Shown in pieces: positions 1 to 62,998 of a stretch of DNA of 64,000 nt; within the stretch, counting starts at the first letter, position 1, and the number at the start of each line of letters is the position of its first letter. The position numbers and the translations under genes are program-made. The notes under the pieces are model-generated. The model worked only from the letters and a program-made list of their open reading frames with translations, was not told the DNA's origin and ran no database searches. Source of the stretch: a virus (lineage: Duplodnaviria; Heunggongvirae; Uroviricota; Caudoviricetes). The DNA lies in the IMG/VR virus record IMGVR_UViG_3300042975_000097. One strand, given 5' to 3'.

Positions 1-1724
1 TCCGGGTGTACGAGCAGCCGGCGGCGATCGGCGGCGCTCCCCCGCTCCACTTGCTCGACCTCAGGCCGCATGAGCAGCCGCGAGCCCAGTCTGTCGGCGG
101 TGGCGACCACATCGTTCATACGATGGGAGGCGCGTAGCGTGCTCACCAGCAGGGAACGGTAATCGTCGTCGATCTCGGTGTCGCCGGCGCGCACGATGGT
201 TCCCGTGTCCTCCGCGTGAAGCGAGGCCGAGCGATCGTCAAGCACGCTCACGTCGGTGATGCCCGATGCCAGCGATTGTCGGCTCTCGGTGACCGCGCGC
301 ACGGCGAACCCAGTGGACTCGACGGCGTGCGCAAGCGCGGTGACGACGTCGCGCTTACGGTTCACGCGCACGATGCGCTTCGAGTATGACGTGGGGAACC
401 GGTGGCGATTGTACTCGTCGATGTAACGGTCGTACTCGTCCGGCACCCGCAGCCGTTGGATGGCGGTGATGCCCTGGGTCGCCTGCAGCCCGTTCAGGTC
501 ATGCTCGATGTCAAGGTTATGATCGTTCGAGTATATGTACGTTCCGTTGAGTTCAAGGTAGTGCTTCGTGTCGGTGTTCGTGTAATGGCGTCCATTCGTG
601 GTGCGCAGGAACCGGCCGAGGTTCTGAATCTCGAACACTTTGGACTTCGTGTGGCGGAAGCCGACGAGGATCTGCGCTCGCGGGCAGTTCCACCCCATGG
701 CGATGGCCTGCTTGTAGATGAGGACGCGAACATTGGATGTCGGCGATTCAAGGCTGGCGATCTGCCCGCTCTTGCGCGTGTTCATGTAGACGAACAGTTG
801 GCCGTTCGCCTCGGTGATGCCCTTGGCCGCCCAGTACTTGGTGATGCGGTCGAGCGCGTCCACGCTCGGCTTGCCGTTGCTCAACTGGATGCCGATGAGC
901 GGGATAGCGTCATCACCGGCTTCATGATAATACGCGATGAGTTCGTTCTGCATGGCATACGCCTTGTCGAGCAGGTACGTCTCCGCGTCCTCGTTGCCCA
1001 TGTTCTCCATGGAATCACCAAGCATGCTGACGCCGTGGTTCATGTCGATGAACGAGCGGAGGAGACCGGCGTCGCGCGCCTCCGCGAACGAGATGACCTC
1101 CGAGCAGTGGTATGGTCCGATGTCGTTGTGGATCGGCGTCGCCGTCGCTTCGATGACGATCGGCGCGGCCCCGCCGACCTCAAGGATAAGGCCCTTCACG
1201 TCATTCAGGAAGTCGTTGATCTTGCTGGCGGCGTTGGCCTTGCCGTAATGCGCCTCATCGACCATGATGACCACGTTGACGCCGGATTTCACGGTCTCCC
1301 GCAGCCAGCTGAACAGGTTGCCCTGCTCATTGTCGCGGACGAGCAGGTTCTTGTAGTCGTTCGTCTTCTTATCGCGCATGCAGAACGCCTCCCAGTTCTT
1401 CACTAGGATGGTGCCGGGCGTTCCCGGCGTGCGGAACGTCTCCATGGTCACGTCGTTCACCGTGAACGGCTGGCCGGCGAGGTTATCGGCGATCGCGCGG
1501 CGCGTCTGATCGTCAAGACTGCCATTGCCCGGCGACATGAACAGCACGACGCTATCGGCCAGCGAGTCGCGGATGATGTACGACAACATGAGCGTCTTGC
1601 CGGAACCGGTCGGGGCGATGAGCTCGATGTACGGCGATGTCTTCGGCCGCTGGGCGCGGTACGTGCGAATGTTCGACTCCAGCGTGTCCAAATGGCGACG
1701 CTGGAAAGCCATGAGTTTCTTCAT
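1..1724 (-). CDS. res: Type III restriction enzyme Res subunit (SF2 helicase/endonuclease), 3' end beyond window start
   Basis: Minus-strand translation from ATG at 1724 (RBS AGGAAAG upstream): MKKLMAFQRRHLD...PTGSGKT (Walker A)...VIMVDEAHYG (DEAH box). Directly downstream of mod. The listed + ORF 402-1406 is antisense to it. Confidence 0.75.
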   Translation of the reverse strand, partial: MKKLMAFQRRHLDTLESNIRTYRAQRPKTSPYIELIAPTGSGKTLMLSYIIRDSLADSVVLFMSPGNGSLDDQTRRAIADNLAGQPFTVNDVTMETFRTPGTPGTILVKNWEAFCMRDKKTNDYKNLLVRDNEQGNLFSWLRETVKSGVNVVIMVDEAHYGKANAASKINDFLNDVKGLILEVGGAAPIVIEATATPIHNDIGPYHCSEVISFAEARDAGLLRSFIDMNHGVSMLGDSMENMGNEDAETYLLDKAYAMQNELIAYYHEAGDDAIPLIGIQLSNGKPSVDALDRITKYWAAKGITEANGQLFVYMNTRKSGQIASLESPTSNVRVLIYKQAIAMGWNCPRAQILVGFRHTKSKVFEIQNLGRFLRTTNGRHYTNTDTKHYLELNGTYIYSNDHNLDIEHDLNGLQATQGITAIQRLRVPDEYDRYIDEYNRHRFPTSYSKRIVRVNRKRDVVTALAHAVESTGFAVRAVTESRQSLASGITDVSVLDDRSASLHAEDTGTIVRAGDTEIDDDYRSLLVSTLRASHRMNDVVATADRLGSRLLMRPEVEQVERGSAADRRRLLVHP

Positions 1725-1844
1725 CCTATGACTCTTTCCTCTGGTTTAACGGTTTTCATAGTATCCATGGTACCTTCGATTTCGGCATCGCCCGTTCCGC
1801 GCGGTCGCGGCGGACCCGCGATAACGCATCGTCAACGAACGCAT

Positions 1845-3719
1845 TCACTTCTCGCGGGCCAGCAGTCCCTGACGCTCAAGCCCATTAACAGTGCGCCGCA
1901 CGGTCCTCACGTACGGCAACGGGTACACGGTCCCATCATCATCCGACTCATCAAGACTCGCCAGGTACACGGCACCCTTATCACCGGCCCACTCGCGGAA
2001 CCCGGCGAGCGCGGCCTCGTACTCATCATCCCCGTTCATCACGGCTACGGCATCCGCGTACACGAGCACCCGGTCACCGTGCCCGTTCGTGAGCACCATC
2101 GACCTGCCGTTAGTGACGGCCGCGGCAAGCGCCGGGCCAGCGGCCGCCAGCGATTCGGTGCTCACCACGTCATGTGTTCCATGAGCAAGCGCGATGACCC
2201 CAGCGATATCACTGGGCGCAGTGAACGCGCTGGTGAACACGTCCGCGTCATCGGCCAGCGCCTTGAAACCGACGCGGTAGTACCGCAGGTTCCCCGGCAG
2301 CGGGTCATGCTTCTTCCCATCGGCCCAGTCCTCACCAGTGAGTACACGGCGCATGCGAACCGCCGTCACGCTGCGAGCGATGCCGTTCTCCGCGCCGTCC
2401 TGCTCGTAATTATTCGTCACGAGGATTGCACGGCGATGCCCGCCATCCTCCTTGTTCAGCTCCGCGACCGCCTGTCCCGTGGTGCCGGAACCGGCGAAGA
2501 AGTCAAGGACAAGAGCATCCTTGGAAGGAGAACCTATTCTGATGATATCTTTGACGTACTTGGCCGATTTTGGTGAGGAAAACACCTTGTTTCCAAAGAT
2601 ATCCGAGAATATTCGCCCCCCGGCTGTCGTGCTATATTCCGGTCTTTCCCAGACGCTCTTTGGTTTAATGGTTCGCTGCGAACCACCTGACTCCAACCTC
2701 ATCTTTGTATAAAGCACAATACCCCCATGCTGTCTCTTTGCGACGACCTCTGATGCACTGTTAGCGATGAACGTTTCCTTTCCCCATCGCCAGCGGCCCT
2801 CTTCGCCGTTAATCTTTGGATAGACACTAAGCGCACCGTCGAAAGGCTCGGCCTCTATGCGAGATAGATCTTTCGACACATAGATCGGATAATACATCCT
2901 TGGGCGATCTGTTCGAAGCGAGTTCTTCCCACTCTTTTTCAATCCGACGAGCTTATACCTTGATATACTGTCGTGTTCTTTATACTCTGCAATCTGCTCC
3001 TCTAAGAGGGGGAACTCGGCTAACTGCACCGATTTCTCATCCTTTGCGTATACTATAAGATATTCATGTGAAGTCGCTATATGTTTGTCGTCACTACGAC
3101 CCGACCTATTATTAATCGCCGTGATGTTCGCCACGAAATTGCCCTCCCCGAACACCTCGTCCATGAGCACTCTCAGGTACGCTTGCTCGTGATCATCAAT
3201 GCTCACGAAGATCACGCCATCGTTCGTGAGCAGTTCCCGCGCGAGGACCAGTCGCGGGCGCATGAACGACAGCCACTTACTATGCCGGTACGAGTCCTCC
3301 GGGTCAACGAACCTGTCATTATACACGAAGTCCTGGTTACCCGTGTTGTACGGCGGGTCGATGTAGATCACGTTCACCTTGCCCGCGTGCGTGGCTTGGA
3401 GCATGGTCAGCGCGGTCAGGTTATCGCCCTCGATGAGCACGTGATCATCCTCGATGGCGCCGGTCTTCACCGTGGAGTGCGCGGGGTCCGCGGTGAGCAC
3501 GGGCACCTCCCCGTTCAGTAGTCTCTGCGCGTCGCCGGTCTCGGGAATGGTGTTGTACGCGAGGCCGAGGTGATGACCGATGGCGAGCAGCCGTTCCTGG
3601 TCCTTGATCGTGGCATCCTGCGCGCGTAGCCTCTCGGCCTGCGCGTCGATGATTGCTTGCAAATCGTTGGCGTTGTTGTGGTCATCAGTGTTGTTGCTTA
3701 TCATTCCCGTGTTGGTCAT
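1845..3719 (-). CDS. mod: Type III RM Mod subunit, N6-adenine DNA methyltransferase (beta class)
   Basis: Motif IV VIYIDPPYNTG precedes motif I DFFAGSGTTGQA (beta-class order); 624 aa; immediately followed by res on the same strand. Confidence 0.85.
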   Translation of the reverse strand: MTNTGMISNNTDDHNNANDLQAIIDAQAERLRAQDATIKDQERLLAIGHHLGLAYNTIPETGDAQRLLNGEVPVLTADPAHSTVKTGAIEDDHVLIEGDNLTALTMLQATHAGKVNVIYIDPPYNTGNQDFVYNDRFVDPEDSYRHSKWLSFMRPRLVLARELLTNDGVIFVSIDDHEQAYLRVLMDEVFGEGNFVANITAINNRSGRSDDKHIATSHEYLIVYAKDEKSVQLAEFPLLEEQIAEYKEHDSISRYKLVGLKKSGKNSLRTDRPRMYYPIYVSKDLSRIEAEPFDGALSVYPKINGEEGRWRWGKETFIANSASEVVAKRQHGGIVLYTKMRLESGGSQRTIKPKSVWERPEYSTTAGGRIFSDIFGNKVFSSPKSAKYVKDIIRIGSPSKDALVLDFFAGSGTTGQAVAELNKEDGGHRRAILVTNNYEQDGAENGIARSVTAVRMRRVLTGEDWADGKKHDPLPGNLRYYRVGFKALADDADVFTSAFTAPSDIAGVIALAHGTHDVVSTESLAAAGPALAAAVTNGRSMVLTNGHGDRVLVYADAVAVMNGDDEYEAALAGFREWAGDKGAVYLASLDESDDDGTVYPLPYVRTVRRTVNGLERQGLLAREK

Positions 3720-11566: not shown

Positions 11567-11665
11567 TGACGCTCGCCGGCGATGGTCGGCGATAATGCGG
11601 GGCTGATGATCATCACATCGTGATGGCGTCGGCCCCGTTTGCGTGCACGGTCGCTGGCGTGCCGG

Positions 11666-14583: not shown

Positions 14584-14709
14584 ATATGACCCCTTTCAAT
14601 CGGTTTGGCATTCACCGCTGTTCGCACCATCATCATGATGCCGATGACGGTGATGACGTCGCCAGCGAGTCGGAGTCAGCGAAACGGCGGCGAACGATGC
14701 CGCCCGCGA

Positions 14710-18467: not shown

Positions 18468-18474
18468 ACATCAT

Positions 18475-19044
18475 ATGAGCAGCATAATCACACATGAACC
18501 GGGCGGCACGGCCGCAGCCGGGGTCACGTCGACGATCGCGCGCCCGTCTGCGCCGAGCGGTTGGCGGCACGGCGCCGCGTGGACGTACGGCGTCATGCTC
18601 GCGGCGTCCGCCGTCGCGTTGTTCGTGTCGTTCATCCTCTCCGCGGAGACCCTACAACTGGCGCGACACCCGAGGCAATCGCTCAGCCGCGACATCAACG
18701 CAGTGCTCTCATGCTCGGCGGCCGCCGGCTCATGGCGGTCGGAGATCGTGAAACTGGGGACGCTGAGCGTGCCGAAGGCGTTCATAGGCATCGCCGCCGA
18801 GTCGGTCCTCGTCACGCTCGCCGTTCTCGGCATGATCCGCGTCAGCGTGCCGAGGTGGTTCACCGTGTGTACGTGGCTAGGCGGGCTGGCGGCGCTCGCG
18901 TACGGCCTACTGGCTGTTCAGCCAGTCCATGTTCGTCATTCAGGCGTTGTGTCCGTGGTGCCTTGTGCTTATGTTCTCCACGACCGTCCAGTTCATGGCG
19001 TTGTCGCACGCGACCGTCACCGTCCGCCGCGTTCCCGGCCATGA
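18475..19044 (+). CDS. hypothetical membrane protein
   Basis: MSSIITHEPGG... with several TM helices. A GTG at 18421 is in frame through the G tract, so the start is ambiguous. Confidence 0.45.
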   Translation: MSSIITHEPGGTAAAGVTSTIARPSAPSGWRHGAAWTYGVMLAASAVALFVSFILSAETLQLARHPRQSLSRDINAVLSCSAAAGSWRSEIVKLGTLSVPKAFIGIAAESVLVTLAVLGMIRVSVPRWFTVCTWLGGLAALAYGLLAVQPVHVRHSGVVSVVPCAYVLHDRPVHGVVARDRHRPPRSRP

Positions 19045-22492: not shown

Positions 22493-22831
22493 TTATCGTC
22501 CACCGTCGAGCGCGCTGACGTCGATGCCGGCGTCAGCGAAATGACGGCGGATGATGGCGTCGAGCGGACCGCCGTCCGGGATCATGCCGACGGGTTCGCC
22601 TAGACCATCGGCCTCCACGGGGATGACGGACCAGCCCTCGCGCTGGTTCGCGTATCGTCTGATGGCCATCTTCGTCCGCAGCGGCGATCGGACCACGATC
22701 GTGTACACCGTCGGCAGTCCGGCTGCGTTCTCCGCGGTCGGCTCGCTCATCGGCCTGACGTCGAACAGCACGGTCTCGTCGATCGTCATGGAATGGTTAC
22801 TTGTATGCTTCTCGTTGTTCTTGTTCATGTG
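22493..22831 (-). CDS. hypothetical small protein
   Basis: MNKNNEKHTSNHSMTIDETVLFDVRP.... No RBS evident, start uncertain. Confidence 0.3.
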   Translation of the reverse strand, partial: HMNKNNEKHTSNHSMTIDETVLFDVRPMSEPTAENAAGLPTVYTIVVRSPLRTKMAIRRYANQREGWSVIPVEADGLGEPVGMIPDGGPLDAIIRRHFADAGIDVSALDGGR

Positions 22832-23195
22832 GCCTACGATAGCATCGATCGGTTCGCGACACGCCGGCGAGCGCGGATTGGTCACACGCTCGGCATCATG
22901 GCCAGCAGGGCGCTGACCCCATTGGAATCGTCGGCTCCGAAGCGGCGTTCCAGCCATCCATCCATGGTCGTGCTGAAATTCAACGCGGCATCGAGCGCCC
23001 ACACCGCCGTCCTCGTCAACGGGTCGTTCGCGTCGATGCGGTCGCCGCACGCCATTGATTCGCATACGACCCGGATGCCGGCGGCGGCGTCAAGTGGTCG
23101 CCGGCACCGGGAACGCGATGGGCGGCCGACCCCGTTATGGAGTCCGACCGCCCATCATCTGATCTTACCGACCGGGCATCACCCGATCACGCCGT

Positions 23196-35959: not shown

Positions 35960-36120
35960 TTGACTTCTCCCCACGGCTAAAACCGGGGGATTCCAAGCCC
36001 TAGTGAGACATGCGCCTCCGGCACAGCGTCCGGGTGGCGTCTTACGGTCTCATGGGATTCAGGGACAAGTCCTGCCCTGGTGAGCATGTTCACAGCCGCG
36101 TTCTTATCACGGTCCTTCAC
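35960..36120 (-). ncRNA. predicted omega RNA of TnpB (scaffold over the tnpB 3' end and right end)
   Basis: Placed by established TnpB biology. The conserved right-end sequence shared with copy 3 supports a structured 3' element. Confidence 0.35.
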
Positions 36121-37245: not shown

Positions 37246-37477
37246 GCAAATCATTATACCACAGTACGCGCAGAACCAACACAACGCATAAGAAAGGGGC
37301 GGCTTACCCCAGTCTTAAAAGGCGGGGCTTGCGCCGCCATTGCCGGTCATATCCTCCTGATAGGTGTTATCAACAGCCGACCGGCGGCCGCCATGTACGA
37401 TGGCGATCGCCGACCGGCATGACACCAATGATAGCACGAACCGCCGACCAGTACCGCGGCGCGCCGGCGACGGGCGT

Positions 37478-38588
37478 TCACGACTTGGTTTTCAATAGGT
37501 ACTTGTTGCTTATCGACTTGAAGTGGCGCCAATCGTCGGCCATCCTGTTCACGGTCGGCCCATCGTAACGCCACACGATGCCCTCGGCGAGTCTTGCCGG
37601 GTTCAGCGCCGACCTGACGCCATCGGAGGCGGCGATGATCGCGTCCACGCCATCGTCAGCGGTCATGTTCTCGCTCAACGGCAGTCCGACCGCGCGCTGC
37701 GGCACCGTGATGTCGGCGAGACCGTACCCGTCGGCGTAGGGGTCGATTCGGCACCCGTCGATGACGAGGTTGAACGCGTGGAACTCGAGGGATCGCGCGT
37801 CGAGCCTGTTGCCGAGGATGCCCGGTCCCGTGGACTCGCCCTGTATGACCACGGAGGAGGCCCCCGTGTCGGCTGCGATGGCGTCCAGCCGGTCACGAAT
37901 GGAGTACGCTTCATAATTGTCCCAGTACGGGTTGTGGACGCTCACGTCGACGCGCTCCACGCTCGCATCATGCGAGCACACGCCGTACTCGGTCTCGTCA
38001 TCGCGCTCCACGCGGTAGTACGTCGTGCTCATGCCGTCCAGCTTCTCGCTGCCGTGGTAGGCGGCGGCGACGTCGAGGTGGCCATCGAGCATCCATGCCA
38101 CCATGTCGGTGAGGTCCTGTATGCGCTGCTCGTCGGTCCTCGTGATGAACCCGGGGAATCCGCCCAGACGGGCGCCGGGGATCTCGATGAGCGGCTGCTC
38201 GTACTTGTGGACGTGTAGCGCGGCGCTCACGTCGGCGCCCTCGGGGGTTCCCGGATCGATGCCGAGCTCCGCCGGCGACATGACGAGTCCCTGCGACAAC
38301 TGGCCGCGAAGCTTCACGCTCCGCAGGATGACGCAATCGACGCCATCCGGATTCACGCCGTGCGCGCCACGGCCAGCGAGCGCGGCGAAATCGGGACGGT
38401 CCAGCGGCAGCATGGAGTCCGGCTCGAAGTACACCACCTTGTCGCCGGCCTTGAACTCGTCGCGCCCGATGACGACGGGCCAGCCGCCGACGCGGGCGAC
38501 CGCTATCCTGTCCGCGTTCGGTATCCGATCGACCCTGCTGATGATCCTGACCGTGGCCAGTTTGCGTGCGCTTGTCGTTCCCGTCATG
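37478..38588 (-). CDS. ATP-dependent RNA ligase family protein (Rnl, DRB0094/NgrRnl-like)
   Basis: RBS GGGAGA before ATG (MTGTTSARKLATVRII...). N-terminal OB-like region ...IPNADRIAVARVGGWPVVIG..FKAGDKVVYFEPDSMLP. Nucleotidyltransferase motif I SEKLDGMS. Confidence 0.55.
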
Positions 38589-38601
38589 ATTGATCTCCCT
38601 A

Positions 38602-39250
38602 TCATTCGATGATTCCCTCTCGATGATAGCACCCGCCGGCGATCGGCGACGGGACCACGGAGCGGGCGCGGAGCCAACGCCCGATGGCATCGCCGTCACC
38701 GCTCTCGTAATAGCGCACGAGCGACGCGCGGAACGCCGGGTCGGCGCCGTCCGGGATCATGAACAGGCCCGCGCCCGATCGGACCATGACGTGGTTGGCG
38801 GCCATGATCGCCGTGCGCTTGTTCCCGTCCTCGAACCACTGGCCCCCGACATACGGTCAGGAACAGCCTGATGGCGCGCTCGCGAGCGTCACCGGGAGCG
38901 GTCGCCGACGCGATGGCGGCGCGGGCATCGTCGAGCGTTGGCATCGCCGGCGTCCATCCCGTGCCGGTCATGCCAACGGGGAAGCGTCTCATGGCGCCGG
39001 GCTCACGGGTGAGACCGGCCGTGAGAAGACGGTTGTACTCGGATATGTGCGCCCAATCGACGGCGGGGTCGGCGTCGTCGGCGAGCAGGAACGTCCACGC
39101 TGCGGCGACGTTCCGGATGATCAGGATGTCATGGCCGCCGGCGGCGTCGGCGCGGAGCGCGCGGTTCACGTCATCGAGGGTAACCGTCGGCATTTCGATG
39201 CGCGCGCATGACCATATGAGCGCGGCGAGGTCACACGCCGTCATCATCAT
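38602..39250 (-). pseudogene. Fic/Doc-family gene interrupted by a frameshift in a G5 run
   Basis: Removing one G (plus C5 at 38843-38847) joins ...AIRLFLTVCRG to QWFEDGNKRTAIMAANHV... (Doc-type FxDGNKRTA motif, with Q in place of H). Confidence 0.5.
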
Positions 39251-40500
39251 GCCCGCGCCCGTTCTCGCTTGTGCGCGGGTTCGCGAGCGCCGCCGCCACC
39301 GCTCCCCTTGGACAATCGTGATTCGCTCTCCACGAGTTCGCGGACGGCCGCCAGCAGCCGGCCATCATGGCTCTCGACGTCATCGCGCAGCATTCCCCGA
39401 AGCGCATCCACGTCAAGACCATTGCCCGCGGCGACGCCAGAGGCCAGCGATGACAGCCCGACCTGAACGTCAACCGGCACCGGGTCGGTGATGCTGATGT
39501 CCGCGTCCGCGGGGCGCCTCGCCATCGATTCGAGTTCGCGCAGCACGTCGACATCCTCCTCGCCCATCATCGCCAGCGCATCCTCGACGGTACGCGTGGA
39601 TCCCGTCGAATCGCGGGCGAGCGTGAAGTAGCCGGTGGCGCCTCTGACCACGGGCATCGAGCCGCGACGCCGGATCGCACTCTCACTGTTCGACCAGCGG
39701 AGCCGCCGGCCGTCGGCGACCGGGATGTCCCTGATGAGCGTGGGTTCCGATTCGGCGCGCAGCTGTGTCGCCAAAGTCAGAAGGGGCGGTCCGCTTATGA
39801 GCAGCGAGATAATGAGAACGATGATCACGCCGAGTGGATCCCCAGAATAGGCGATGGCCGTCGGCACGCCCAGAATAATCGAGACGATGATAGCAAAGAT
39901 ACTGGTGCCAAGGATGATCGGGTTGAATGAATACAGCATCAGCCGACGATAGGCGACGCAGTGCCGTCTGATGAACCGGCGCACCCATCCGCCGCGGTCA
40001 TGGACGGTCAGTTCGGCATCCGGTGAGCCGCCGGCGTTCTCGTCGGCGTGGGCTCGCGCCCACTTGCCGCCCTCACGCTTGAGCTTCGCGTCCCCGATCA
40101 TCGCTGTCCACACGACGGCGATGCGCGAGCCGTACGCCGTCTGCGTGGTCAACAATTCCTCGTCGGCACGGTGGAAGGATTTGTAATCCCATTCCCTAAA
40201 CTTCGGCATGTCATCGGGGTTCATTCCTCGGAACCAACTAATCTCCTTAACGAGTTGGGGGAGGTCGTGGAGGGAGTCGCGCATCGACCATGGCACGCAT
40301 ACGCGCGCTTGCATGATTGCGCCATCGCGGACGATGATGTCCGCGTCCGTGTTGCTGAGATCCTTGTTGCTGATGTCCATATGGCCGAGTGTAGCACTAG
40401 TCAGTGGCCGACGCCTTGGAGCGGAATCCCGTGCCGACGCGCGCTATACCTGATAGCTCCCACCTTTAACACGATTTGAGGGGGTCGTCCCGTAGTTTTA
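39205..40500. repeat. segmental duplication, copy 1 (paired with 53893-55200)
   Basis: Near-identical DNA including the gene and a flanking 60-bp repeat unit. Confidence 0.8.
39247..40380 (-). CDS. hypothetical membrane protein (copy 1 of a duplicated gene)
   Basis: 377 aa, ~95% identical to the 53934-55076 product. Central TM region. Confidence 0.55.
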   Translation of the reverse strand: MDISNKDLSNTDADIIVRDGAIMQARVCVPWSMRDSLHDLPQLVKEISWFRGMNPDDMPKFREWDYKSFHRADEELLTTQTAYGSRIAVVWTAMIGDAKLKREGGKWARAHADENAGGSPDAELTVHDRGGWVRRFIRRHCVAYRRLMLYSFNPIILGTSIFAIIVSIILGVPTAIAYSGDPLGVIIVLIISLLISGPPLLTLATQLRAESEPTLIRDIPVADGRRLRWSNSESAIRRRGSMPVVRGATGYFTLARDSTGSTRTVEDALAMMGEEDVDVLRELESMARRPADADISITDPVPVDVQVGLSSLASGVAAGNGLDVDALRGMLRDDVESHDGRLLAAVRELVESESRLSKGSGGGGAREPAHKRERARA

Positions 40501-53892: not shown

Positions 53893-55200
53893 GCATGACC
53901 ACATGAGCGCGGCGAGGTCACGCGACGTCAGCATCACGCTCGTGTCCGCTCCCGCTCGCGTGCGGGTTCGTGAGCGGGAGCGGTGGCGCCGCCACCGCTC
54001 CCCTTGGCTAGTCGTGATTCGCTGCCCACGAGTTCGCGGACGGCCGCCAACAGCCGACCATCATGGTTCTCGACGTCATCGCGCAGCATTCCCCGGAGCG
54101 CATCCACGTCAAGGCCATTACCGGCGGCGACGCCAGAGGCCAGCGATGACAGCCCGGCCTGAACGTCAACCGGCACCGGATCGGTGATGCTGATGTCCGC
54201 GTCCACGGGGCGCCTCGCCATCGATTCGAGTTCGCGCAGCACGTCGACACGCTTCTCGCCCATCATCGTCAGCGCATCCTCGACGGTACGCGTGGATCCC
54301 GTCGAATCGCGGGCGAGCGTGAAATAGCCGGCGGCGCCTGCGACCACGGGCATCGAGCCGCGACGCCGGATCGCACTCTCACTGTTCGACCAGCGGAGCC
54401 GCCGGCCGTCGGCGACCGGGATGTCCCTGATGAGCGTGGGTTCCGAGGTGGCGCGCAGATGTGTCGCCCAGGTCAGAAGGGTCGGTCCGCTTATGAGCAG
54501 CGAGACGATGAGAACGATGATCGCGCCGAGCGGATCCCCAGAATAGCCGAAGGCCAGCGGGAGGCCAAAGCCAGTCAAGACGGCAAGAGTAACGATACTG
54601 GCGGTAATGATGATCGGGTTGAATGAATACAGCATCAGCCGACGATAGGCGACGCAGTGCCGTCTGATGAACCGGCGCACCCATCCGCCGTGGTCATGGA
54701 CGGTCAGTTCGGCATCCGGTGAGCCGCCTGCGTTCTCGTCGGCGTGGGCTCGCGCCCACTTGCCGCCCTCACGCTTGAGCTTCGCGTCCCCGATCATCGC
54801 TGTCCACACGACGGCGATGCGCGAGCCGTACACTGTCTGCGTGGTCAACAATTCCTCGTCGGCACGGTGGAAGGATTTGTAATCCCATTCCCTAAACTTC
54901 GGCATGCTGTTGGGGTTCATTCCTCGGAGCCGACTAATCTCCTCGACGAGTTGGGGGAGGTCGTGGAGGGAGTCGCGCATCGACCATGGCACGCATACGC
55001 GCGCTTGCATGATTGCGCCATCGCGGACGATGATGTCCGCGTCCGTGTTGCTGAGATCCTTGTTGCTGATGTCCATATGGCCGAGTGTAGCACTAGTCAG
55101 TGGCCGACGCCTTGGAGCGGAATCCCGTGCCGACGCGCGCTATACCTGATAGCTCCCTCCTTTAACGCGATTCCGAGGGTACTCCCGAATCGATCTATGG
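53893..55200. repeat. segmental duplication, copy 2 (paired with 39205-40500), ending in one 60-bp repeat unit (55138-55200)
   Basis: 55138-55200 matches the reverse complement of the innermost right-arm unit 41170-41230 (...CCGAGGGTACTYCCGAMTCGATCTAYGG). Confidence 0.8.
53934..55076 (-). CDS. hypothetical membrane protein (copy 2 of the duplicated gene)
   Basis: 380 aa, near-identical to the 39247-40380 product. Confidence 0.55.
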   Translation of the reverse strand: MDISNKDLSNTDADIIVRDGAIMQARVCVPWSMRDSLHDLPQLVEEISRLRGMNPNSMPKFREWDYKSFHRADEELLTTQTVYGSRIAVVWTAMIGDAKLKREGGKWARAHADENAGGSPDAELTVHDHGGWVRRFIRRHCVAYRRLMLYSFNPIIITASIVTLAVLTGFGLPLAFGYSGDPLGAIIVLIVSLLISGPTLLTWATHLRATSEPTLIRDIPVADGRRLRWSNSESAIRRRGSMPVVAGAAGYFTLARDSTGSTRTVEDALTMMGEKRVDVLRELESMARRPVDADISITDPVPVDVQAGLSSLASGVAAGNGLDVDALRGMLRDDVENHDGRLLAAVRELVGSESRLAKGSGGGATAPAHEPARERERTRA

Positions 55201-58320: not shown

Positions 58321-59781
58321 ATGAGCCAGAAGGTACGAATCATCAGAGTCAGGCACACGGGCGCGACCGTGTACCTTGGCGACGATTCATACCACAACCA
58401 TTGCTGGACGCGCAACCCCGAACGCATCATGGACTGGCTGTGTGATGGTTGGCGCACCCGTTTCAACCAGCATCGGGAGCATCGGGTCATCCGCCGCTAC
58501 ATGGAGGGTATGGAATCCCATGAGCGCATGTGGGTGGACGTCCCCTTGGGTGGGGCGGCCGTCGGGGAGCCATGCAAGGACAGTGAGGCACGAACCCGGT
58601 GTTCTTGGCTCGCATGCATTCCCGCAGCCGTTCTCGCCAGTCCCACGCGCGTGGAGAACTCGGAATGGTACGCCGCATTGAAACGCAAGAAGAATAATGG
58701 CGGCCGTGTCCCGGGGTTCAAATCCCGCAAACACAACCCCCAGTATTTCGTATGTTGGCGCAACCAAACCAAGACGGGCAACGCCATCTACCATCAGGTG
58801 TCACGCAAGCGTGGCGTGGTCGTCATCACCGGAACCGTGAAAAAAGCATTCCGCAAGCCGGGCGAAACGGGATGCCGTTGGAGGCTCACCATTCACGTGC
58901 GCGTCAGCCAACCCGTCAGGGATTATACGAGTGTCGGGGTGAATTGGACGGAACGCACTCTGACGTTCACCAACATTCCGTCACCCATCCGGCGGGATGC
59001 CACCGGTCGGCAGACCGGCATCGACCGTGGTTGCGCCCACACATTGGCCTTGTCGAATGGGACCATGCTGGACATGCCGCAACCGTCCAAACGGGAGAAG
59101 CAAGCGTATCTGCGTCTGCAACGCAAGCTCGCCCGACAAGATGCGGTTAACAGCCGGCGTGGTGGGAAAACCGCGAAATTCCAATCGAAACGACGCAAAC
59201 TCACATTGAAGCGCATGGGTTCGATACGCAGCCGCACCAACAACCGCAAGGACGATTGGGTCGCGAAGACCACGGGCCGACTGGTCGAAGAATACGATCT
59301 CATCGCCTTGGAAGCGTTGAACACCCGGCAAATGACCCGCAAGCCGAAACCGAAACAGGACCCCAATCGCAAGGGGCGCTACCTGCGCAATGGTGCGGCG
59401 GCCAAAGCGGGATTGAACCGTAGTATCCTCAACAACCGTTGGGCGGATATCCAGAGCAAACTCGAATACAAGACCCGTCTCGCCGGAACCCGACTCATAC
59501 TGATCGACCCGGCGTACACGTCCCAGACCTGCAACCGTTGCGGTCATGTCGCAAAGGAGAACCGCGAGAGCCAAGCGGTCTTCCAATGCATCAACTGCGG
59601 CAACAAGGACAATGCGGACATCAACGCGGCCAAGAACATCCTCGACCGCGCGACACACACAACCGGCATGGACGATGCCGAGGGCGTGGAGGGACACGCC
59701 ACCCGTGAAACCTATGTTTCATGGGAAGGTCCCGTTGAAACGCCAACCCCTGCCACACGTATCGGAAGGCTCCTCCACTGA
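58321..59781 (+). CDS. tnpB: TnpB RNA-guided endonuclease
   Basis: 486 aa. GIDRGCAHT. EALN. CNRCGH...CINCGNKDNADINAAKNI. Upstream -10 TGGTAAGAT. Confidence 0.9.
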   Translation: MSQKVRIIRVRHTGATVYLGDDSYHNHCWTRNPERIMDWLCDGWRTRFNQHREHRVIRRYMEGMESHERMWVDVPLGGAAVGEPCKDSEARTRCSWLACIPAAVLASPTRVENSEWYAALKRKKNNGGRVPGFKSRKHNPQYFVCWRNQTKTGNAIYHQVSRKRGVVVITGTVKKAFRKPGETGCRWRLTIHVRVSQPVRDYTSVGVNWTERTLTFTNIPSPIRRDATGRQTGIDRGCAHTLALSNGTMLDMPQPSKREKQAYLRLQRKLARQDAVNSRRGGKTAKFQSKRRKLTLKRMGSIRSRTNNRKDDWVAKTTGRLVEEYDLIALEALNTRQMTRKPKPKQDPNRKGRYLRNGAAAKAGLNRSILNNRWADIQSKLEYKTRLAGTRLILIDPAYTSQTCNRCGHVAKENRESQAVFQCINCGNKDNADINAAKNILDRATHTTGMDDAEGVEGHATRETYVSWEGPVETPTPATRIGRLLH

Positions 59782-59840
59782 GGAACGTGTCCCATACGCG
59801 ACAGGAATCCCCCCGGCTTCAGCCGTGGGGAGGAAGTCAA
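59650..59840 (+). ncRNA. predicted omega RNA of TnpB (3' end of tnpB plus right end)
   Basis: Conserved right-end segment shared with the element at 35960. Confidence 0.35.
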
Positions 59841-59968
59841 GGACTTCTGGTCGGAATCATCATACCCGGTGGAACGCGACAGGGAGTCGCAACGGGGCTG
59901 GTGAGCATGATGGGGGTCAACGGCGCCCGCCGGCGCCCGTGAGGGCGGGTGGGAGACGTTCGCGGGCG

Positions 59969-60650
59969 TCAACATGTGTTGACGGCAGGCGTGCGATTCC
60001 CGCTCACCGGAACGGGACGAAGCCGTAGAGCACCAGCGTGAGCACGATGATCCACAGGCACGCGCGGCGCAGCATGTAGGCCACGGGGGGAACGCATGGC
60101 CCTCATGAGCATCATCTTCGTGTCATCGCCGATATCGTCGTCGCCGAGAATGGCCGCCAGCGCCCCGTCCTTCGACCATGATATGTACACGATCGGCAGG
60201 AACGTCATGTCGGGAATCAGCAGTGCGGCCGCGGTGACCACGTTCACTATCGCCGGAAGCGTGTACATGTACGAGGCGTTGAGCACGGCGCCGGCGGCGT
60301 TCGTCAGCGATCTGTAGCAGAGGGCGCAGAACGCGGCGATCAGTCCCAGATTGAGGCCGACGGTGATCATTTGATTGGCCCCTCGAACGACGCGGGCGCG
60401 AACGCTCATGTCGACGGTGGACTGGACGTCCGCGCTGATGATGCTCGATCGGGTCTCCATGATCATATGATGGCGAAACGTTCTGACGTTCCCGTTGGCC
60501 GTTTCGTCGGCGACCGCTGACGGCGCCGGTTCGGACTCGTCAGTGGTACCGGCCGCGGGTTCGCCATCATCGATCGGCGTTACCCCTGCGGTCGCTCTCG
60601 TCTCGTCATCATCATCGTTCGTCTCGTCATCGTTCATGTCATCAATGATA
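59969..60650 (-). CDS. hypothetical membrane protein, divergent from the pilin-like gene
   Basis: Start taken at MNDDETNDDDD. TM helices ITVGLNLGLIAAFCAL and VVTAAALLIPDMTFLPIVYI. C-terminus uncertain. Confidence 0.3.
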
Positions 60651-60733
60651 TCACGGCGGGCTGGAAGCCGCGCCGACCCGCAATCGGCCCGATATTCGTT
60701 CGTCGGCATTGTTACCGGCATGGACAGGGGAGC

Positions 60734-62536
60734 ATGATGGCGCGTAGGCATGGCAGTACGTTGACGGAGCTTGTGATGGCGGTCGGCATCATGATGGTGC
60801 TGGCGGCGGTGAGCGTCCCCGTCTTCCTGAACCAGCGGCAGCAGTCATGGCGCATGAGCGTGAAGAACGACGTGGCCGCCGCCTCCGTCGTGGCTAACTC
60901 GTTCATGAGACAGGGTTCGACGGGCACGAGCGGCGGCGTCGCCGGCGCTTCGTATGTGGTCACGACGGCGGATACGCCGGCCGATTGCTCACCGACGGCT
61001 TGCTCCGTGACGTTCGATAACGCGAACGGCGACACGCCGACCGGTAATCTGGATGCGCAGCACATGGTGACCATAGCGAAGGGGAACTCGCTGAAAATAG
61101 AGATCGCCGATCATAAGTACACCGTCACGGGAACCAGTGGGCGCATTTCCGGGTGGTCGTACGCATTCGATTCGACCACCGGGGCGGGTACTTGGAAGCA
61201 GAACAACACGACTAATTTCAAGAAAGCCGGTCCGTCCGACCCGAGCGTTGGCTGCGCGGCGGTGCTGGATGGCACGAAGCTCATCATCGGTAAGGACGGC
61301 ATGACATGTAAGCTGAGTACCGCCATGGTGGATGCGGTCGCCGGCGGAAACCGGGACGCCATCACTGAGATCGATCTCCACGGGCATATCGTGATCGTGG
61401 ACGGTTTTAATCTGTTCTCCAGAATGCCTTCTCTCACTTCGATTCCCTACCTGCCCGGGCAGTCGGTGACGTCCAGCGTTAATGGTGTGGTATACGCGGA
61501 AATGTTCCGGTATGACTACAAGCTTGAGCAAGCAGAATCTATCAGTCATTGGGATACCCGTAACGTCACGGACATGTCGCACATGTTCTGGGATGCGGAA
61601 GCGTTCAACCAGCCCGTGTCGAACTTCGACACGAGCAAGGTCACGGACATGTTATTCATGTTCTGTGGTGCGAGCGCGTTCAACCAGTCCGTGTCGAACT
61701 TTGACACGAGCAAGGTCACGGATATGGGCGGCATGTTCGCTGGTGCGAGCGCGTTCAACCAGCCCGTGTCGAACTTCGACACGAGCAACGTCACGAGCAT
61801 GTATGAAATGTTCCAAGATGCGAGCGCGTTCAACCAGCCCGTGTCGAGCTTCGGCACGAGAAATGTCAAGGACATGAGCAGGATGTTCCAAGATGCGAGC
61901 GCGTTCAACCAGCCCGTGTCGAACTTCGACACGAGCAACGTCACGAACATGGCATGGATGTTCGCTGGTGCGCATGCGTTCAACCAGCCCGTGTCGAACT
62001 TCAACACGAGCAACGTCACGAACATGAACGGCATGTTCAACGGTGCGCGCGCGTTCAACCAGCCCGTATCGAATTTCAACACGAGGAACGTCACGAACAT
62101 GAGGGACATGTTCTCTGATGCGTATGCGTTCAACCAGCCCGTATCGAGCTTCGACACGAGCAACGTCACGAACATGGCATACATGTTCAAAAATGCGTAT
62201 GCGTTTAACCAGCCCGTATCGAACTTCGACACGAGCAACGTCACGAACATGGCATGGATGTTCTCTCGCGCGTATGCGTTCAACCAGTCCGTGTCAAACT
62301 TTGACACGAGCAAGGTCACGGACATGAAATACATGTTCTGGTGTGCGTATGCGTTCAATCAGCCGATATCGAACTTCGACACGAGCAAGGTCACGGACAT
62401 GAGCAGCATGTTCAACGAGGCGCGTGCGTTCGATCAAGACCTGGCCGGTTGGAACGTCGCCAACGTCACCCTTCATGACTATTTCTCCACCGGGTCCGCG
62501 CTGACCGCGGACCATCTTCCGAATTTCAAGTCCTGA
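60734..62536 (+). CDS. prepilin-type N-terminal domain protein fused to ~13 DUF285-type (WDTSxVTxMxxMF..A.AFNQPVSNF) repeats
   Basis: N-terminus MMARRHG|STLTELVMAVGIMMVLAAVSVP (class III signal, Glu at +5). RBS GGGGAG. 25-aa repeats from ~61560. Confidence 0.7.
   Translation: MMARRHGSTLTELVMAVGIMMVLAAVSVPVFLNQRQQSWRMSVKNDVAAASVVANSFMRQGSTGTSGGVAGASYVVTTADTPADCSPTACSVTFDNANGDTPTGNLDAQHMVTIAKGNSLKIEIADHKYTVTGTSGRISGWSYAFDSTTGAGTWKQNNTTNFKKAGPSDPSVGCAAVLDGTKLIIGKDGMTCKLSTAMVDAVAGGNRDAITEIDLHGHIVIVDGFNLFSRMPSLTSIPYLPGQSVTSSVNGVVYAEMFRYDYKLEQAESISHWDTRNVTDMSHMFWDAEAFNQPVSNFDTSKVTDMLFMFCGASAFNQSVSNFDTSKVTDMGGMFAGASAFNQPVSNFDTSNVTSMYEMFQDASAFNQPVSSFGTRNVKDMSRMFQDASAFNQPVSNFDTSNVTNMAWMFAGAHAFNQPVSNFNTSNVTNMNGMFNGARAFNQPVSNFNTRNVTNMRDMFSDAYAFNQPVSSFDTSNVTNMAYMFKNAYAFNQPVSNFDTSNVTNMAWMFSRAYAFNQSVSNFDTSKVTDMKYMFWCAYAFNQPISNFDTSKVTDMSSMFNEARAFDQDLAGWNVANVTLHDYFSTGSALTADHLPNFKS
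61560..62430 (+). repeat. 75-bp in-frame tandem coding repeats (DUF285-like)
   Basis: Repeated ...GCGTTCAACCAGCCCGTGTCGAACTTCGACACGAGCAA(C/G)GTCACG(G/A)ACATG.... Confidence 0.85.
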
Positions 62537-62998
62537 CCGCCGCCAGACCGGCGAGCGCGTCGGCCAACGCCGAAGACGTTGACGATTCGTTAACGTACGC
62601 GAACGATTGCGGCGCCGAGCGCAGGCCAGCGTCCGCGAGCGTCAACGGGGTCGCGAGCGCCGTCGCGTCGGCGAGCAGGTACGCGAACGCCCTCGACCGT
62701 CCCGCGTGGTACGCACTGTACTCGGCGCGCGGCACCATGGAGGCCGCCCCGCATGTCGCCCACACGTCGCCGGCCGCGCCCGATTCGATGCCGGTGACGT
62801 TGGCGACGCCGACGATCGAGGACACGGGCGCGGTCTCATAGATGACGAGCCGCCCCACCGGTCCCGATGGCGCCCGCCGGCGAAGCTCCGCGGTCTTCGC
62901 GCCTGCGAGGATGAGACGCGACCACCTCGGGTGGATGGCGAGGACGACGGTCGCCGACGTATCGTCGTCCATCGTTCCTTGATGCTGGCCATTCATGC
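62526..62998 (-). CDS. ASCH domain protein
   Basis: VVLAIHPRWSRLILAGAKTAELRRR...GRLVIYETAPVSSIVGVANV pattern. RBS GGAGAG before ATG (MNGQHQG...). Confidence 0.4.

What the first reader, a model, noticed from the sequence alone, without database searches (positions are those of the whole stretch)
60734..62536. Prepilin-type N-terminus fused to a 13-repeat DUF285-like domain
A class III (type IV pilin-like) leader, G|STLTELVMAVGIMMVLAA, is followed by ~450 aa of 25-aa WDTSxVTxMxxMF..AxAFNQPVSNF repeats. These are encoded by near-identical 75-bp DNA repeats, prone to expansion or contraction.

It could be a pilus-tip or pseudopilin adhesin with variable repeat number.
Basis: partly seen in the sequence, partly recalled or inferred. 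Interest (0 to 1): 0.55.

Follow-up and report, generated by a model that had tools for sequence, protein, structure and literature searches.

The report
Type IV pilin fused to variable LRR adhesin
This gene encodes a type IV pilus subunit fused to a leucine-rich-repeat "sticky" domain whose repeat number differs between strains. It is a real but already catalogued kind of modular pilin, found here on a very large, mostly uncharacterised mobile-element-like contig with no pilus machinery in view.

Summary
The ORF is real: 60734..62536 (+), 600 aa.

**Domain layout**
- Residues 1-~165 are a complete type IV pilin module. The leader is MMARRHG|S, with Gly-1, Glu+5 and Pro22, followed by a 52-residue α1 helix and a β-sheet.
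- This module is homologous to stand-alone 130-170 aa pilins.
- Residues ~166-272 are a capping or linker domain.
- Residues 273-572 are 12 in-register 25-aa DUF285/PARCEL repeats, followed by a degenerate cap (573-600).

- The repeats cover about 328 aa, not about 450.
- The 75-bp units are 60-92% identical (mean 77%), not near-identical.

**Evidence that the gene is functional and variable**
- About 20 metagenomic homologues have the same architecture, most with a canonical RRG|FTLIELLVV signal.
- Alleles at the same syntenic locus are 425, 510, 570 and 600 aa long.
- The closest allele differs by one clean 525-bp (7-repeat) in-frame indel.
- dN/dS is 0.23-0.39.

**Limits**
- No prepilin peptidase or assembly genes lie in the roughly 74 kb examined (window plus downstream flank).
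- In related metagenome contigs, paralogues sit next to stand-alone pilins and a PilT-like ATPase.

**Verdict**
- N_methyl-DUF285 pilins were already tallied in Raynaud et al. 2021.
- This is a new member of a known kind, of modest interest.

The parts
60726..60732 (+). Shine-Dalgarno-like AGGGGAG just upstream of the tandem ATG ATG start
   Evidence: Read directly from the sequence. The spacing suits the second ATG (60737) better than the first.
60734..62536 (+). CDS of the modular type IV pilin-DUF285 protein (600 aa plus stop)
   Evidence: ORF list. GC3 is 0.80 in this frame. The exact protein is called on 5 metagenome contigs. dN/dS is 0.23-0.39 between alleles.
60734..60754 (+). Class III (prepilin) leader peptide MMARRHG, ending in Gly-1
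   Evidence: It aligns with the leaders ending ...RRG / ...KRG of canonical paralogues and stand-alone pilins.
60755..60916 (+). Mature N-terminus and α1 helix (S1 TLTE5 ... P22 ...), including the hydrophobic assembly segment
   Evidence: AF2 predicts a helix at residues 10-61, with block-mean pLDDT 91-97 for residues 11-60 in the module model. PilA_Myxo matches residues 4-58 at E=8.6e-5. The profile hits solved pilins. This is the only strongly hydrophobic window in the protein.
60917..61228 (+). Pilin globular domain: variable αβ-loop with Cys85/Cys90, then β-strands
   Evidence: It aligns with stand-alone pilins P0007/P0008 to their C-termini. AF2 predicts strands 118-125, 128-135, 141-146 and 151-156.
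61229..61549 (+). Linker / N-terminal capping domain of the solenoid (aa ~166-272; Cys174/Cys192)
   Evidence: It is conserved only within this pilin-DUF285 family. AF2 block-mean pLDDT is mostly 87-94 over residues ~181-270 (one block 79). No relatives were found in GTDB species-representative genomes or in IMG/VR.
61550..62449 (+). Twelve in-register 25-aa (75-bp) DUF285/PARCEL leucine-rich repeats
61601..62125 (+). 525-bp (7-repeat) segment absent from the 425-aa allele (L018/P0001); breakpoints lie in the conserved GCGTTCAACCAGCCCGT core
   Evidence: Global DNA alignment of the window gene against the L018 gene gives two blocks, 98.2% and 95.1% identical, separated by a single gap.
62450..62533 (+). 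Degenerate 13th repeat / C-terminal cap (WNVANVT...HLPNFKS); no LPXTG motif and no C-terminal TM segment
   Evidence: The same cap is conserved in family members.
61615..61633 (.). Perfect 9+1+9 palindrome CGTGTCGAACTTCGACACG at a repeat junction. Matches to the degenerate pattern also lie at 61690, 61765, 61915 and 62290; the copy at 61690 is imperfect.
   Evidence: Five matches against 0 expected in shuffles. Per-unit palindrome analysis. This is the PARCEL dyad symmetry described in PMC2996958.
61546..62358 (-). 270-aa antisense ORF across the repeats; a by-product of the palindromic repeat DNA, not a gene
   Evidence: ORF list. Its translation is itself a repeat (...LVSKFDTGWLNA...). PMC2996958 notes such opposite-strand ORFs in many PARCEL regions.
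59969..60709 (-). Divergently transcribed orphan neighbour (246 aa as called by JGI), conserved next to the pilin gene in all alleles
   Evidence: It has no Pfam or PHROG match.
62526..62972 (-). Convergent ASCH-domain neighbour whose 3' end overlaps the pilin gene by 11 bp; conserved synteny marker
   Evidence: Pfam ASCH. The same neighbour is present in L005-L007, L015 and L017.

Best explanation
The gene encodes a modular type IV pilin. A short class III leader (MMARRHG) would be removed after Gly-1 by a prepilin peptidase. The hydrophobic α1 helix would then insert the subunit into a type IV filament.

The C-terminal BspA-type leucine-rich-repeat solenoid (12 DUF285/PARCEL repeats plus caps) would be displayed outside the filament as a ligand-binding (adhesin) module. 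Because of its bulk it probably acts as a low-abundance or tip subunit.

The number of LRR units changes by in-register recombination or slippage between the conserved cores of the 75-bp units. This gives alleles with solenoids of different length and surface.

**What is shown and what is inferred**
- Shown: the domain identities, the homology to pilins, purifying selection, and allelic repeat-number variation.
- Inferred: cleavage, incorporation into a pilus, tip position and adhesion.
- Unknown: the ligand and the assembly machinery.
For: **Pilin module**
- Gly-1, Glu+5 and Pro22 are present, and there is a single hydrophobic N-terminal segment.
- NCBIfam PilA_Myxo aligns to residues 4-58 at E=8.6e-5.
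- An exhaustive HMMER search with residues 1-272 gave 369 hits at E<=1e-3, mostly 130-170 aa and aligned from the signal onward.
- 40 of 43 sampled rows match N_methyl.
- Their profile hits solved pilins: Geobacter PilA 2e-25, Myxococcus PilA, PAK pilin 6.7e-14 over 111 residues, and S. sanguinis PilE1.
- AF2 gives a 52-residue helix followed by β-strands, mean pLDDT 83.7.

**Family**
- About 20 homologues at roughly 100% coverage carry PF07963 plus PF03382, with RRG|FTLIELLVV.

**LRR module**
- DUF285 scores E=5e-118.
- Variability is confined to 5 of the 25 positions.

**Selection and variation**
- dN/dS is 0.23-0.39 over the 266-272 non-repeat codons, and the signal plus α1 is nearly invariant at dS up to 0.5.
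- Syntenic alleles are 425, 510, 570 and 600 aa.
- One 525-bp in-frame indel separates the window allele from the 425-aa allele.

**Link to pili in related metagenome contigs**
- Three tandem stand-alone pilins lie immediately upstream of a pilin-DUF285 gene.
- A PilT-like T2SSE ATPase lies about 3.5-6 kb upstream of others.

**Precedent**
- Modular pilins, including 22 proteins with IPR012902-IPR005046 architectures, are listed in Raynaud et al. 2021 Dataset S1.
Against: - Pfam N_methyl is below its gathering score (16.8-17.7 against 21.2).
- The mature residue +1 is Ser rather than Phe, and Gly sits at +11 rather than +14.
- No prepilin peptidase, platform protein, PilB-type ATPase or PilM/N/O, and no other pilin gene, was found in the 64-kb window or the 8.5 kb downstream of it. 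ORFs under 120 aa, the type III R-M ORFs, the 260-aa orphan neighbour and two low-scoring ORFs (18471..18863, 22551..22916) were not scanned.
- The contig fetched for the window's methylase gene (L026, a 10-kb contig from another sample) also shows none.
- The rest of the 346-kb contig and the host genome could not be inspected.
- Foldseek on the pilin-module model gave no significant match.
- No experimental data exist for any DUF285 pilin.
Confidence: 0.72

Rival explanations
1. The pilin-like N-terminus is not processed or polymerised. It acts only as an N-terminal membrane anchor (signal-anchor), so the LRR solenoid is displayed directly on the cell surface as a BspA-like surface protein with no pilus involved.
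For: - No pilus machinery lies in about 74 kb around the gene.
- The signal is divergent (Ser+1, N_methyl sub-threshold).
- Most DUF285 proteins use other anchors, such as lipoprotein signals, T9SS sorting domains or cell-wall domains, so the repeats work with many display systems (PMC2996958).
Against: - A plain anchor would not need a complete pilin globular domain, yet residues 62-165 are conserved and align with stand-alone pilins.
- Gly-1, Glu+5 and Pro22 and the whole α1 are nearly invariant among alleles at dS up to 0.5.
- Paralogues cluster with stand-alone pilins and a PilT-like ATPase.
Confidence: 0.13
2. It is a subunit of a filament encoded by the mobile element itself and serves element transfer or host-range determination. 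Variable LRR modules would choose the recipient or target cell, analogous to the PilV tip adhesins of the IncI1 plasmid R64 thin pilus, rather than mediating host or mucosal adhesion for the bacterium.
For: - The gene sits on a 346-kb, orphan-rich contig with mobile-element hallmarks: TnpB/IS200 copies, type III R-M, an intein-interrupted Dcm, a P4 cII-like gene and an RNA ligase.
- Related contigs carry several paralogous pilin-DUF285 genes, stand-alone pilins and a PilT-like ATPase.
- The family is absent from 185,579 species-representative genomes.
- The R64 PilV analogy is my own knowledge.
Against: - No relaxase, coupling protein or complete pilus biogenesis set was seen in any fetched locus.
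- The nature of the element (plasmid, phage or chromosomal island) is unresolved. There are no PLSDB homologues by tblastn for two orphans, no PHROG hits for eight orphans, and no IMG/VR hit for the linker domain.
Confidence: 0.1
3. It is a decaying or orphan pilin gene that is no longer functional, and the repeat-number differences are neutral assembly or replication noise.
For: - The signal peptide is divergent.
- No partner genes are nearby.
- Repeat arrays are hard to assemble from short reads.
Against: - All four alleles have intact reading frames.
- dN/dS is 0.23-0.39.
- The identical 600-aa protein was recovered on 5 contigs, with three samples shown.
- The 425-aa allele was recovered in two samples.
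- The indel is exactly 7 x 75 bp with clean breakpoints.
Confidence: 0.05

Closest known systems
Modular type IV pilins as defined by Raynaud et al. 2021 (S. sanguinis PilB with a vWA module; PilC with a lectin module), PMC8179133
   Same: An N-terminal pilin module with a class III signal peptide, fused through a linker to a bulky module not specific to T4P. In PilB that module is an adhesin. The organisms are monoderm.
   Different: The module here is a DUF285/BspA-type LRR solenoid rather than vWA or lectin. No biochemical data exist. The gene is not inside a pil locus. The signal is atypical (Ser+1).
IPR012902-IPR005046 (N_methyl-DUF285) architectures listed in Dataset S1 of PMC8179133 (22 proteins by my count, 1 to 9 DUF285 hits each)
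   Same: The same two-part architecture, so the kind is already catalogued.
   Different: Those proteins are only tallied, not described. This lineage (a G|STLTE signal, a family-specific 105-aa cap domain, location on a huge orphan-rich contig) has no relative in GTDB representative genomes.
PARCEL / DUF285 surface proteins (Mycoplasma LppQ/LppC lipoproteins and others), PMC2996958, named 'BspA family leucine-rich repeat surface protein' by NCBI
   Same: A 25-residue amphipathic tandem repeat, variable repeat number, dyad symmetry in the coding DNA, antisense ORFs, and association with mobile elements.
   Different: The anchor is a type IV pilin module rather than a lipobox, a TM segment or a sorting domain. 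That paper does not mention pilins.
PilV tip adhesins of the R64 (IncI1) thin type IV pilus, varied by the shufflon (own knowledge)
   Same: A pilin encoded on a mobile element, whose C-terminal ligand-binding part is genetically variable.
   Different: Variation there comes from site-specific inversion (Rci recombinase). Here it comes from repeat-number change. No conjugation genes were seen here.
Thermus thermophilus ComZ, a large minor pilin with a β-solenoid module (cited in PMC8179133)
   Same: A solenoid module grafted onto a pilin.
   Different: ComZ's module is inserted in the pilin fold and is implicated in DNA binding. It has no DUF285 repeats.
[not shown]
   Same: An LRR solenoid used as an extracellular binding surface. 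Variable residues are confined to a few positions per repeat here; that these form a binding face is inference.
   Different: Internalins are anchored by LPXTG or GW modules, and BspA by T9SS. There is no sequence homology beyond the LRR fold.

Membership tests
Type IV pilin (class III signal peptide proteins) | Short hydrophilic leader ending in Gly at -1 | tested here: met
   The leader is MMARRHG|S. It aligns with ...RRG|F of paralogues and ...KRG|F of stand-alone pilins.
Type IV pilin (class III signal peptide proteins) | Glu at +5 and about 20 hydrophobic residues forming the N-terminal half of a ~50-residue α1 helix | tested here: met
   The mature sequence is S1-T-L-T-E5, with Pro22 conserved. 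This is the only hydrophobic window in the protein. AF2 predicts a helix at 10-61.
Type IV pilin (class III signal peptide proteins) | Match to Pfam N_methyl (PF07963) / IPR012902 above threshold | tested here: not met
   The score is 16.8-17.7 bits against a cutoff of 21.2. In contrast, 40 of 43 rows of alignment A5 (homologues plus the window module) match at E<=0.01, and most full-length family members are annotated with PF07963.
Type IV pilin (class III signal peptide proteins) | Globular domain homologous to, or with the fold of, known pilins | tested here: met
   - Residues 1-165 align end to end with the 161-170 aa pilins P0007/P0008.
- The family profile hits solved PilA/PilE chains, including 111 residues of PAK pilin.
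- Foldseek on the module model was uninformative.
Type IV pilin (class III signal peptide proteins) | A prepilin peptidase and filament assembly machinery in the same genome | tested here: inconclusive
   - None was found in the 64-kb window or the 8.5 kb downstream; ORFs under 120 aa and a few longer ORFs were not scanned. The contig fetched for the window's methylase gene also shows none.
- The remaining roughly 270 kb of the contig and the host genome could not be read.
- Related metagenome contigs have a PilT-like ATPase and stand-alone pilins next to paralogues.
Type IV pilin (class III signal peptide proteins) | Cleavage, N-methylation and polymerisation into a filament | not testable with these tools
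   This needs protein chemistry and electron microscopy.
Modular type IV pilin (sensu Raynaud et al. 2021) | [quoted passage not shown] | tested here: met
   Pilin module at 1-165 plus DUF285 at 273-600. The same architecture is listed in Dataset S1.
Modular type IV pilin (sensu Raynaud et al. 2021) | The extra module has a direct role in a pilus function such as adhesion | not testable with these tools
   Only inferred, from the LRR fold and the concentration of variability at a few repeat positions.
DUF285 / PARCEL (BspA-family LRR surface protein) | Tandem 25-residue repeat matching PF03382 / TIGR02167 | tested here: met
   E=5.4e-118 and 4e-87, with 11 stretches. There are 12 in-register units.
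DUF285 / PARCEL (BspA-family LRR surface protein) | Dyad symmetry of the repeat-coding DNA | tested here: met
   A 19-nt degenerate palindrome pattern matches at 5 repeat junctions (4 of them perfect palindromes) against 0 expected. The feature is defined in PMC2996958.
DUF285 / PARCEL (BspA-family LRR surface protein) | Solenoid (LRR-like) fold | tested here: met
   [not shown]
Flp/Tad (type IVc) pilin, the known Bifidobacterium pilus type | Small (~50-80 aa) subunit with a G|XXXXEY Flp motif | tested here: not met
   The protein is 600 aa with G|STLTELV and a full α/β pilin domain. Its homologues are PilA-type. The family definition is my own knowledge.
T2SS / Com pseudopilin | Membership of the GspG/ComGC families and a neighbouring T2SS or com operon | tested here: not met
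   GspG matches only at E=0.018, far below its cutoff. No such operon lies nearby.
Sortase-dependent (LPXTG) pilin | C-terminal LPXTG sorting signal with a TM segment and charged tail | tested here: not met
   The C-terminus is ...ADHLPNFKS, with no LPXTG motif and no C-terminal hydrophobic segment.

The most novel reading that the evidence does not exclude
Very large, orphan-rich extrachromosomal elements of gut Actinomycetota (the window's contig is 346 kb) may carry their own repertoire of type IV pilins. The repertoire would include stand-alone major-type pilins, several pilin-LRR fusions with repeat-number-variable binding modules, and a PilT-like ATPase. The element would use them to re-equip host pili or to build its own filament, for adhesion or for choosing transfer or infection targets. 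This would be a repeat-number-driven counterpart of the R64 shufflon.
Probability: 0.15. Interest if true: 0.65.

Novelty: new member of a known kind. Interest (0 to 1): 0.35.

Why it matters
**Why the gene itself is interesting**
- Modular pilins are one way that simple type IV filaments gain new binding functions.
- An LRR (DUF285/BspA-type) module whose length changes by whole repeats would make the adhesive reach and specificity of a pilus tunable between strains.
- Here that variation is seen directly at one syntenic locus.

**Why the setting is interesting**
- The gene lies on a huge, essentially unannotated element seen only in metagenomes.
- It is therefore a concrete entry point for asking what such elements contribute to their hosts' surfaces.

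**Why the score stays moderate**
- The architecture is already catalogued.
- Nothing here contradicts current views of T4P biology.

Tried and rejected
**Searches for relatives that found nothing**
- A genome-contig scan with the family-specific linker alignment found no relative in 185,579 species-representative genomes.
- The same alignment against IMG/VR found none.
- tblastn of the whole protein against PLSDB found only DUF285 regions, with query coverage starting at residue 165 or later, so there is no pilin fusion on known plasmids.

**Host and element identification**
- Megablast of 30 kb of the window against PLSDB matched only the TnpB element (about 90% to B. longum megaplasmids) and a 39-48-bp stretch matching mycobacterial plasmids.
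- Using TnpB on genome contigs for host identification gave only two uninformative MAG hits.
- tblastn of two large orphans against PLSDB, and PHROGs on eight orphans, gave nothing, so the element type stays unresolved.

**Hunt for pilus machinery**
- A metagenome-contig scan with the PilT-like ATPase, intended to find it on the window's contig, failed because the patterns chosen were low-complexity.
- Homologues of that ATPase fall from above 90% to 37% identity or less. None could be tied to the 346-kb contig, and the homology database also failed to return the window's own protein, so this says little.
- P0018 led to an unrelated chromosomal pilMNO-pilB-pilT cluster.

**Other scans**
- Foldseek of the whole model gave only weak LRR hits. 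Foldseek of the pilin module gave only spurious SH3 hits.
- Promoter/terminator, tRNA and Rfam scans found nothing near the gene.

**Ideas rejected**
- I rejected the idea that the antisense 270-aa ORF is a gene. It mirrors the palindromic repeats.
Full report
**The observation**

An AGGGGAG Shine-Dalgarno-like motif lies just before the tandem ATG ATG.

Pfam DUF285 matches at E=5.4e-118. NCBIfam TIGR02167 ('PARCEL repeat-containing surface protein') matches in 11 stretches. Tandem Repeats Finder reports a 75-bp period with 11.6 copies and 81% matches.

In the protein I count 12 units of exactly 25 aa in perfect register (aa 273-572), followed by a degenerate capping unit (573-600).

Two details were overstated:
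- The repeat tract is about 328 aa, not about 450.
- The 75-bp units are 60-92% identical (mean 77%), not near-identical. They do share exact stretches of up to 53 bp.

**Is the N-terminus really a prepilin signal?**

On its own the HMM evidence is marginal.
- Pfam N_methyl scores 16.8-17.7 bits against a cutoff of 21.2.
- NCBIfam's Myxococcus PilA model aligns residues 4-58 at E=8.6e-5.

The sequence has the essentials: a 7-residue basic leader ending in Gly, Glu at +5, Pro at +22, and the only strongly hydrophobic segment of the protein. It also has Ser rather than Phe at +1.

Homology settles the question.
- An exhaustive HMMER search of 1.84 billion cluster representatives with residues 1-272 gave 369 hits at E<=1e-3. 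Most are 130-170 aa proteins aligned from their own signal peptide onward.
- Of 43 sampled rows (40 of these hits, two stand-alone pilins, and the window module itself), 40 match N_methyl.
- The closest named one is a Cryobacterium (Actinomycetota) type IV pilin.
- A profile of these sequences hits solved pilins: Geobacter PilA (2e-25), Myxococcus PilA, Pseudomonas PAK pilin over 111 residues (6.7e-14), and Streptococcus sanguinis PilE1.
- Two stand-alone 161-170 aa pilins (P0007, P0008) align with residues 1-165 up to their C-termini.

The fusion partner is therefore a whole pilin, not just a signal peptide.

AlphaFold2 on this module (mean pLDDT 83.7) gives a helix at 10-61 followed by β-strands, four of them consecutive at 118-156. 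Foldseek on that model was uninformative.

**The rest of the protein**

In the full-length model (mean pLDDT 82.6), residues ~176-270 form a confident small domain that leads into a solenoid with pLDDT of about 97 through to the C-terminus.

- Next come plant LRR receptors and Listeria internalins.

There is no PDB relative by sequence.

Within the 12 repeats the scaffold positions (T3, V6, M9, M12, F13, A16, A18, F19, Q21) are invariant. Positions 10, 11, 14, 15 and 17 take 5-9 different residues each. This is the pattern expected of a variable binding face on a constant scaffold.

There is no LPXTG motif and no C-terminal anchor.

**A family, and a polymorphic locus**

A full-length search found about 20 metagenomic proteins of 479-664 aa that cover about 100% of the query at 49-73% identity. 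They are annotated with both PF07963 and PF03382. Most begin ...RRG|FTLIELLVV, a textbook class III signal.

The window's protein belongs to a sub-lineage with G|STLTELV (P0001, P0129, P0132, P0135).

The exact 600-aa protein is on five metagenome contigs; the three shown come from three JGI samples. The longest contig is 346,143 bp, with the gene at about 87.9 kb.

The same locus occurs with alleles of 570, 510 and 425 aa. It is recognised by the divergent orphan upstream and by ASCH, cpYpsA and a P4-cII-like gene downstream.

Over the 266-272 non-repeat codons, dN/dS is 0.23-0.39 with dS up to 0.57. The signal peptide and α1 are almost invariant. The unusual signal is therefore maintained by selection.

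The 425-aa allele is 98% identical to the window allele on one side of the gap and 95% on the other. It differs by one 525-bp gap, which is exactly seven repeats. The breakpoints lie in the conserved GCGTTCAACCAGCCCGT core.

**PARCEL features**

A 19-nt near-palindromic motif, CGTGTCRAACTTYGACACG, matches at five repeat junctions, four of them perfect palindromes, against zero expected.

This is the dyad symmetry that defines PARCELs (PMC2996958). It explains the 270-aa antisense ORF at 61546..62358, which is a mirror of the repeats rather than a gene.

**Context**

I found no pilus machinery near the gene.
- Pfam scans of 40 of the 44 called ORFs of at least 120 aa between 4.4 and 58 kb gave none. 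Smaller ORFs, two low-scoring ORFs and the IS200/TnpB pair (identified by eye) were not scanned. The two type III R-M ORFs at 3..3719 lie outside this stretch and were recognised from their translations; Pfam annotation on L026 confirms the methylase.
- What these scans and the earlier single-gene scans did find:
  - Mobile-element and DNA-modification genes: TnpB genes (with an IS200-type TnpA recognised by eye), and a C5-methylase interrupted by an intein and carrying an HNH domain.
  - Other genes: a secreted nuclease, an RNA ligase, a cation efflux protein and an SPFH protein.
  - A large majority of ORFs had no family at all.
- The 8.5 kb beyond the window end has none. The contig fetched for the window's methylase gene (L026, 10 kb, another sample) also has none.
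- A six-frame motif scan finds no second pilin gene in the window.
- The remaining roughly 270 kb of the contig could not be read with these tools.

Related metagenome contigs link the family to pili.
- In L008-L010, three tandem stand-alone pilin genes (172, 172 and 176 aa) sit directly upstream of a pilin-DUF285 gene.
- In L001/L002 and L011/L012, a conserved block precedes one or two pilin-DUF285 genes. The block is an orphan, a 547-aa PilT-like T2SSE ATPase, an NrtR/NUDIX gene, PnuC and a NadR-like gene.
- L003 holds two more such fusions (727 and 759 aa) next to three stand-alone pilins.
- In one ENA assembly, the window-type locus, the ATPase block and the pilin cluster occur on contigs with similar low coverage of 1.5-2.1x. 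This is compatible with one replicon or genome, but it is only circumstantial.

The element itself is unclassified.
- It has no PLSDB relatives beyond the TnpB element (about 90% to B. longum megaplasmids).
- It has no PHROG matches for eight large orphans.
- It has no IMG/VR or GTDB-representative relatives of the linker domain.

**Mechanism**

The best-supported reading is a modular type IV pilin.
- A prepilin peptidase cleaves after Gly7.
- α1 integrates the subunit into a type IV filament.
- The LRR solenoid is exposed as a binding module. Given its bulk it is probably a minor or tip subunit. Raynaud et al. argue this for modular pilins in general.
- Repeat-number change alters the length and the set of variable surface positions.

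Domain identities, selection and repeat-number variation are shown here. Processing, assembly, location and adhesion are inferred. The ligand and the machinery are unknown.

The rival readings are less likely:
- Plain membrane anchor. A full, conserved pilin globular domain argues against it.
- A filament used for the transfer or host range of the element. This is possible but unsupported by any transfer genes seen.
- Pseudogene. Selection and the recurrence of intact alleles contradict it.

**Comparison with what is known, and novelty**

The category already exists. Raynaud et al. 2021 (PMC8179133) defined modular pilins and counted 1,219 in InterPro.

Their Dataset S1 includes IPR012902-IPR005046 architectures. 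I count 22 such proteins. IPR005046 is DUF285.

None has been studied, and the PARCEL paper does not mention pilins.

This gene is therefore a new member of a known kind. Its particular points of interest are:
- the demonstrated repeat-number polymorphism at one locus;
- the atypical but conserved signal;
- its residence, with paralogous families, on very large uncharacterised elements.

Noticed in passing
window 1-64000; L005 (JGI 3300051660 contig Ga0527070_018, 346,143 bp): The window is part of a 346-kb metagenome contig at about 62% GC. Most ORFs have no Pfam family. Eight large ORFs have no PHROG match, and two have no PLSDB homologue by tblastn. Whether the element is a megaplasmid, a giant phage or an island is unresolved.
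   Followed up: partly
window 58321-59781 (+) and about 59800-59851: A TnpB (RNA-guided endonuclease family) element, about 90% identical in DNA to copies on Bifidobacterium longum megaplasmids. It is absent from the otherwise syntenic allele L017, so it is a recent insertion next to the pilin locus. A 39-48-bp stretch just downstream matches mycobacterial plasmids at 92-100% and is probably the conserved element end or guide-RNA scaffold.
   Followed up: partly
window 19444-22353 (+): A 969-aa C5 cytosine DNA methyltransferase interrupted by a Hint/intein domain right after its catalytic GGSPC motif. It also carries an HNH_3 domain near the C-terminus.
   Followed up: no
window 6822-8446 (-) and 35977-37284 (-): An IS200/IS605-type pair (a TnpA-like Y1 transposase at 8003-8446 plus a TnpB-like ORF at 6822-8006, both judged from their translations only) and a further solo TnpB confirmed by Pfam. 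That makes three TnpB genes in 64 kb.
   Followed up: no
window 39247-40380 (-) and 53934-55076 (-); also 28236-29441, 29836-30465, 30449-31483 (+): Two sets of paralogous orphan genes. The first is a pair of ~380-aa membrane-segment proteins with near-identical N-termini (MDISNKDLSNTDADIIVRDG...). The second is a tandem trio sharing long identical stretches. This suggests intra-element duplication of unknown genes.
   Followed up: no
window 3-3719 (-): A type III restriction-modification pair: an N6_N4 methylase (1845-3719) and a Res helicase subunit that runs off the window start.
   Followed up: partly
window 37478-38677 (-): An RNA ligase with a PHA02142-type OB-fold domain, an architecture named after a phage protein.
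   Followed up: no
window 14710-15579 (-): A DNA/RNA non-specific endonuclease with a lipoprotein-like signal (...AGMSAC). A similar nuclease, together with cpYpsA, TnpB, DUF285 and a modular pilin, recurs on another orphan-rich contig (L024).
   Followed up: no
L020 (JGI 3300046047 contig Ga0455796_000043, 170,763 bp), 4737-15518: From the same sample as one copy of the window's gene, this contig carries a cluster of four large pilin-like genes (400, 451, 402 and 342 aa). It also has a 139-aa N_methyl protein and a 291-aa DUF285 protein. Alongside are CrgA (an actinobacterial marker, by my own knowledge), YkuD, SIR2, AAA_5 with DUF2201, and a T4 rIIB-like gene.
   Followed up: no
L001/L002 2156-11125; L011/L012 4844-11548: Conserved synteny of a PilT-like ATPase with a long acidic N-terminal extension, an NrtR-type NUDIX regulator, the PnuC nicotinamide-riboside transporter and a NadR-like kinase, immediately upstream of pilin-DUF285 genes. 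This is an unexplained pairing of NAD salvage genes with pilins.
   Followed up: no
L001 16195-17451 (-): A 418-aa protein with a canonical RRG|FTLIELLVV signal and pilin domain, but a different, unannotated C-terminal module. The same elements therefore graft more than one kind of module onto this pilin.
   Followed up: no
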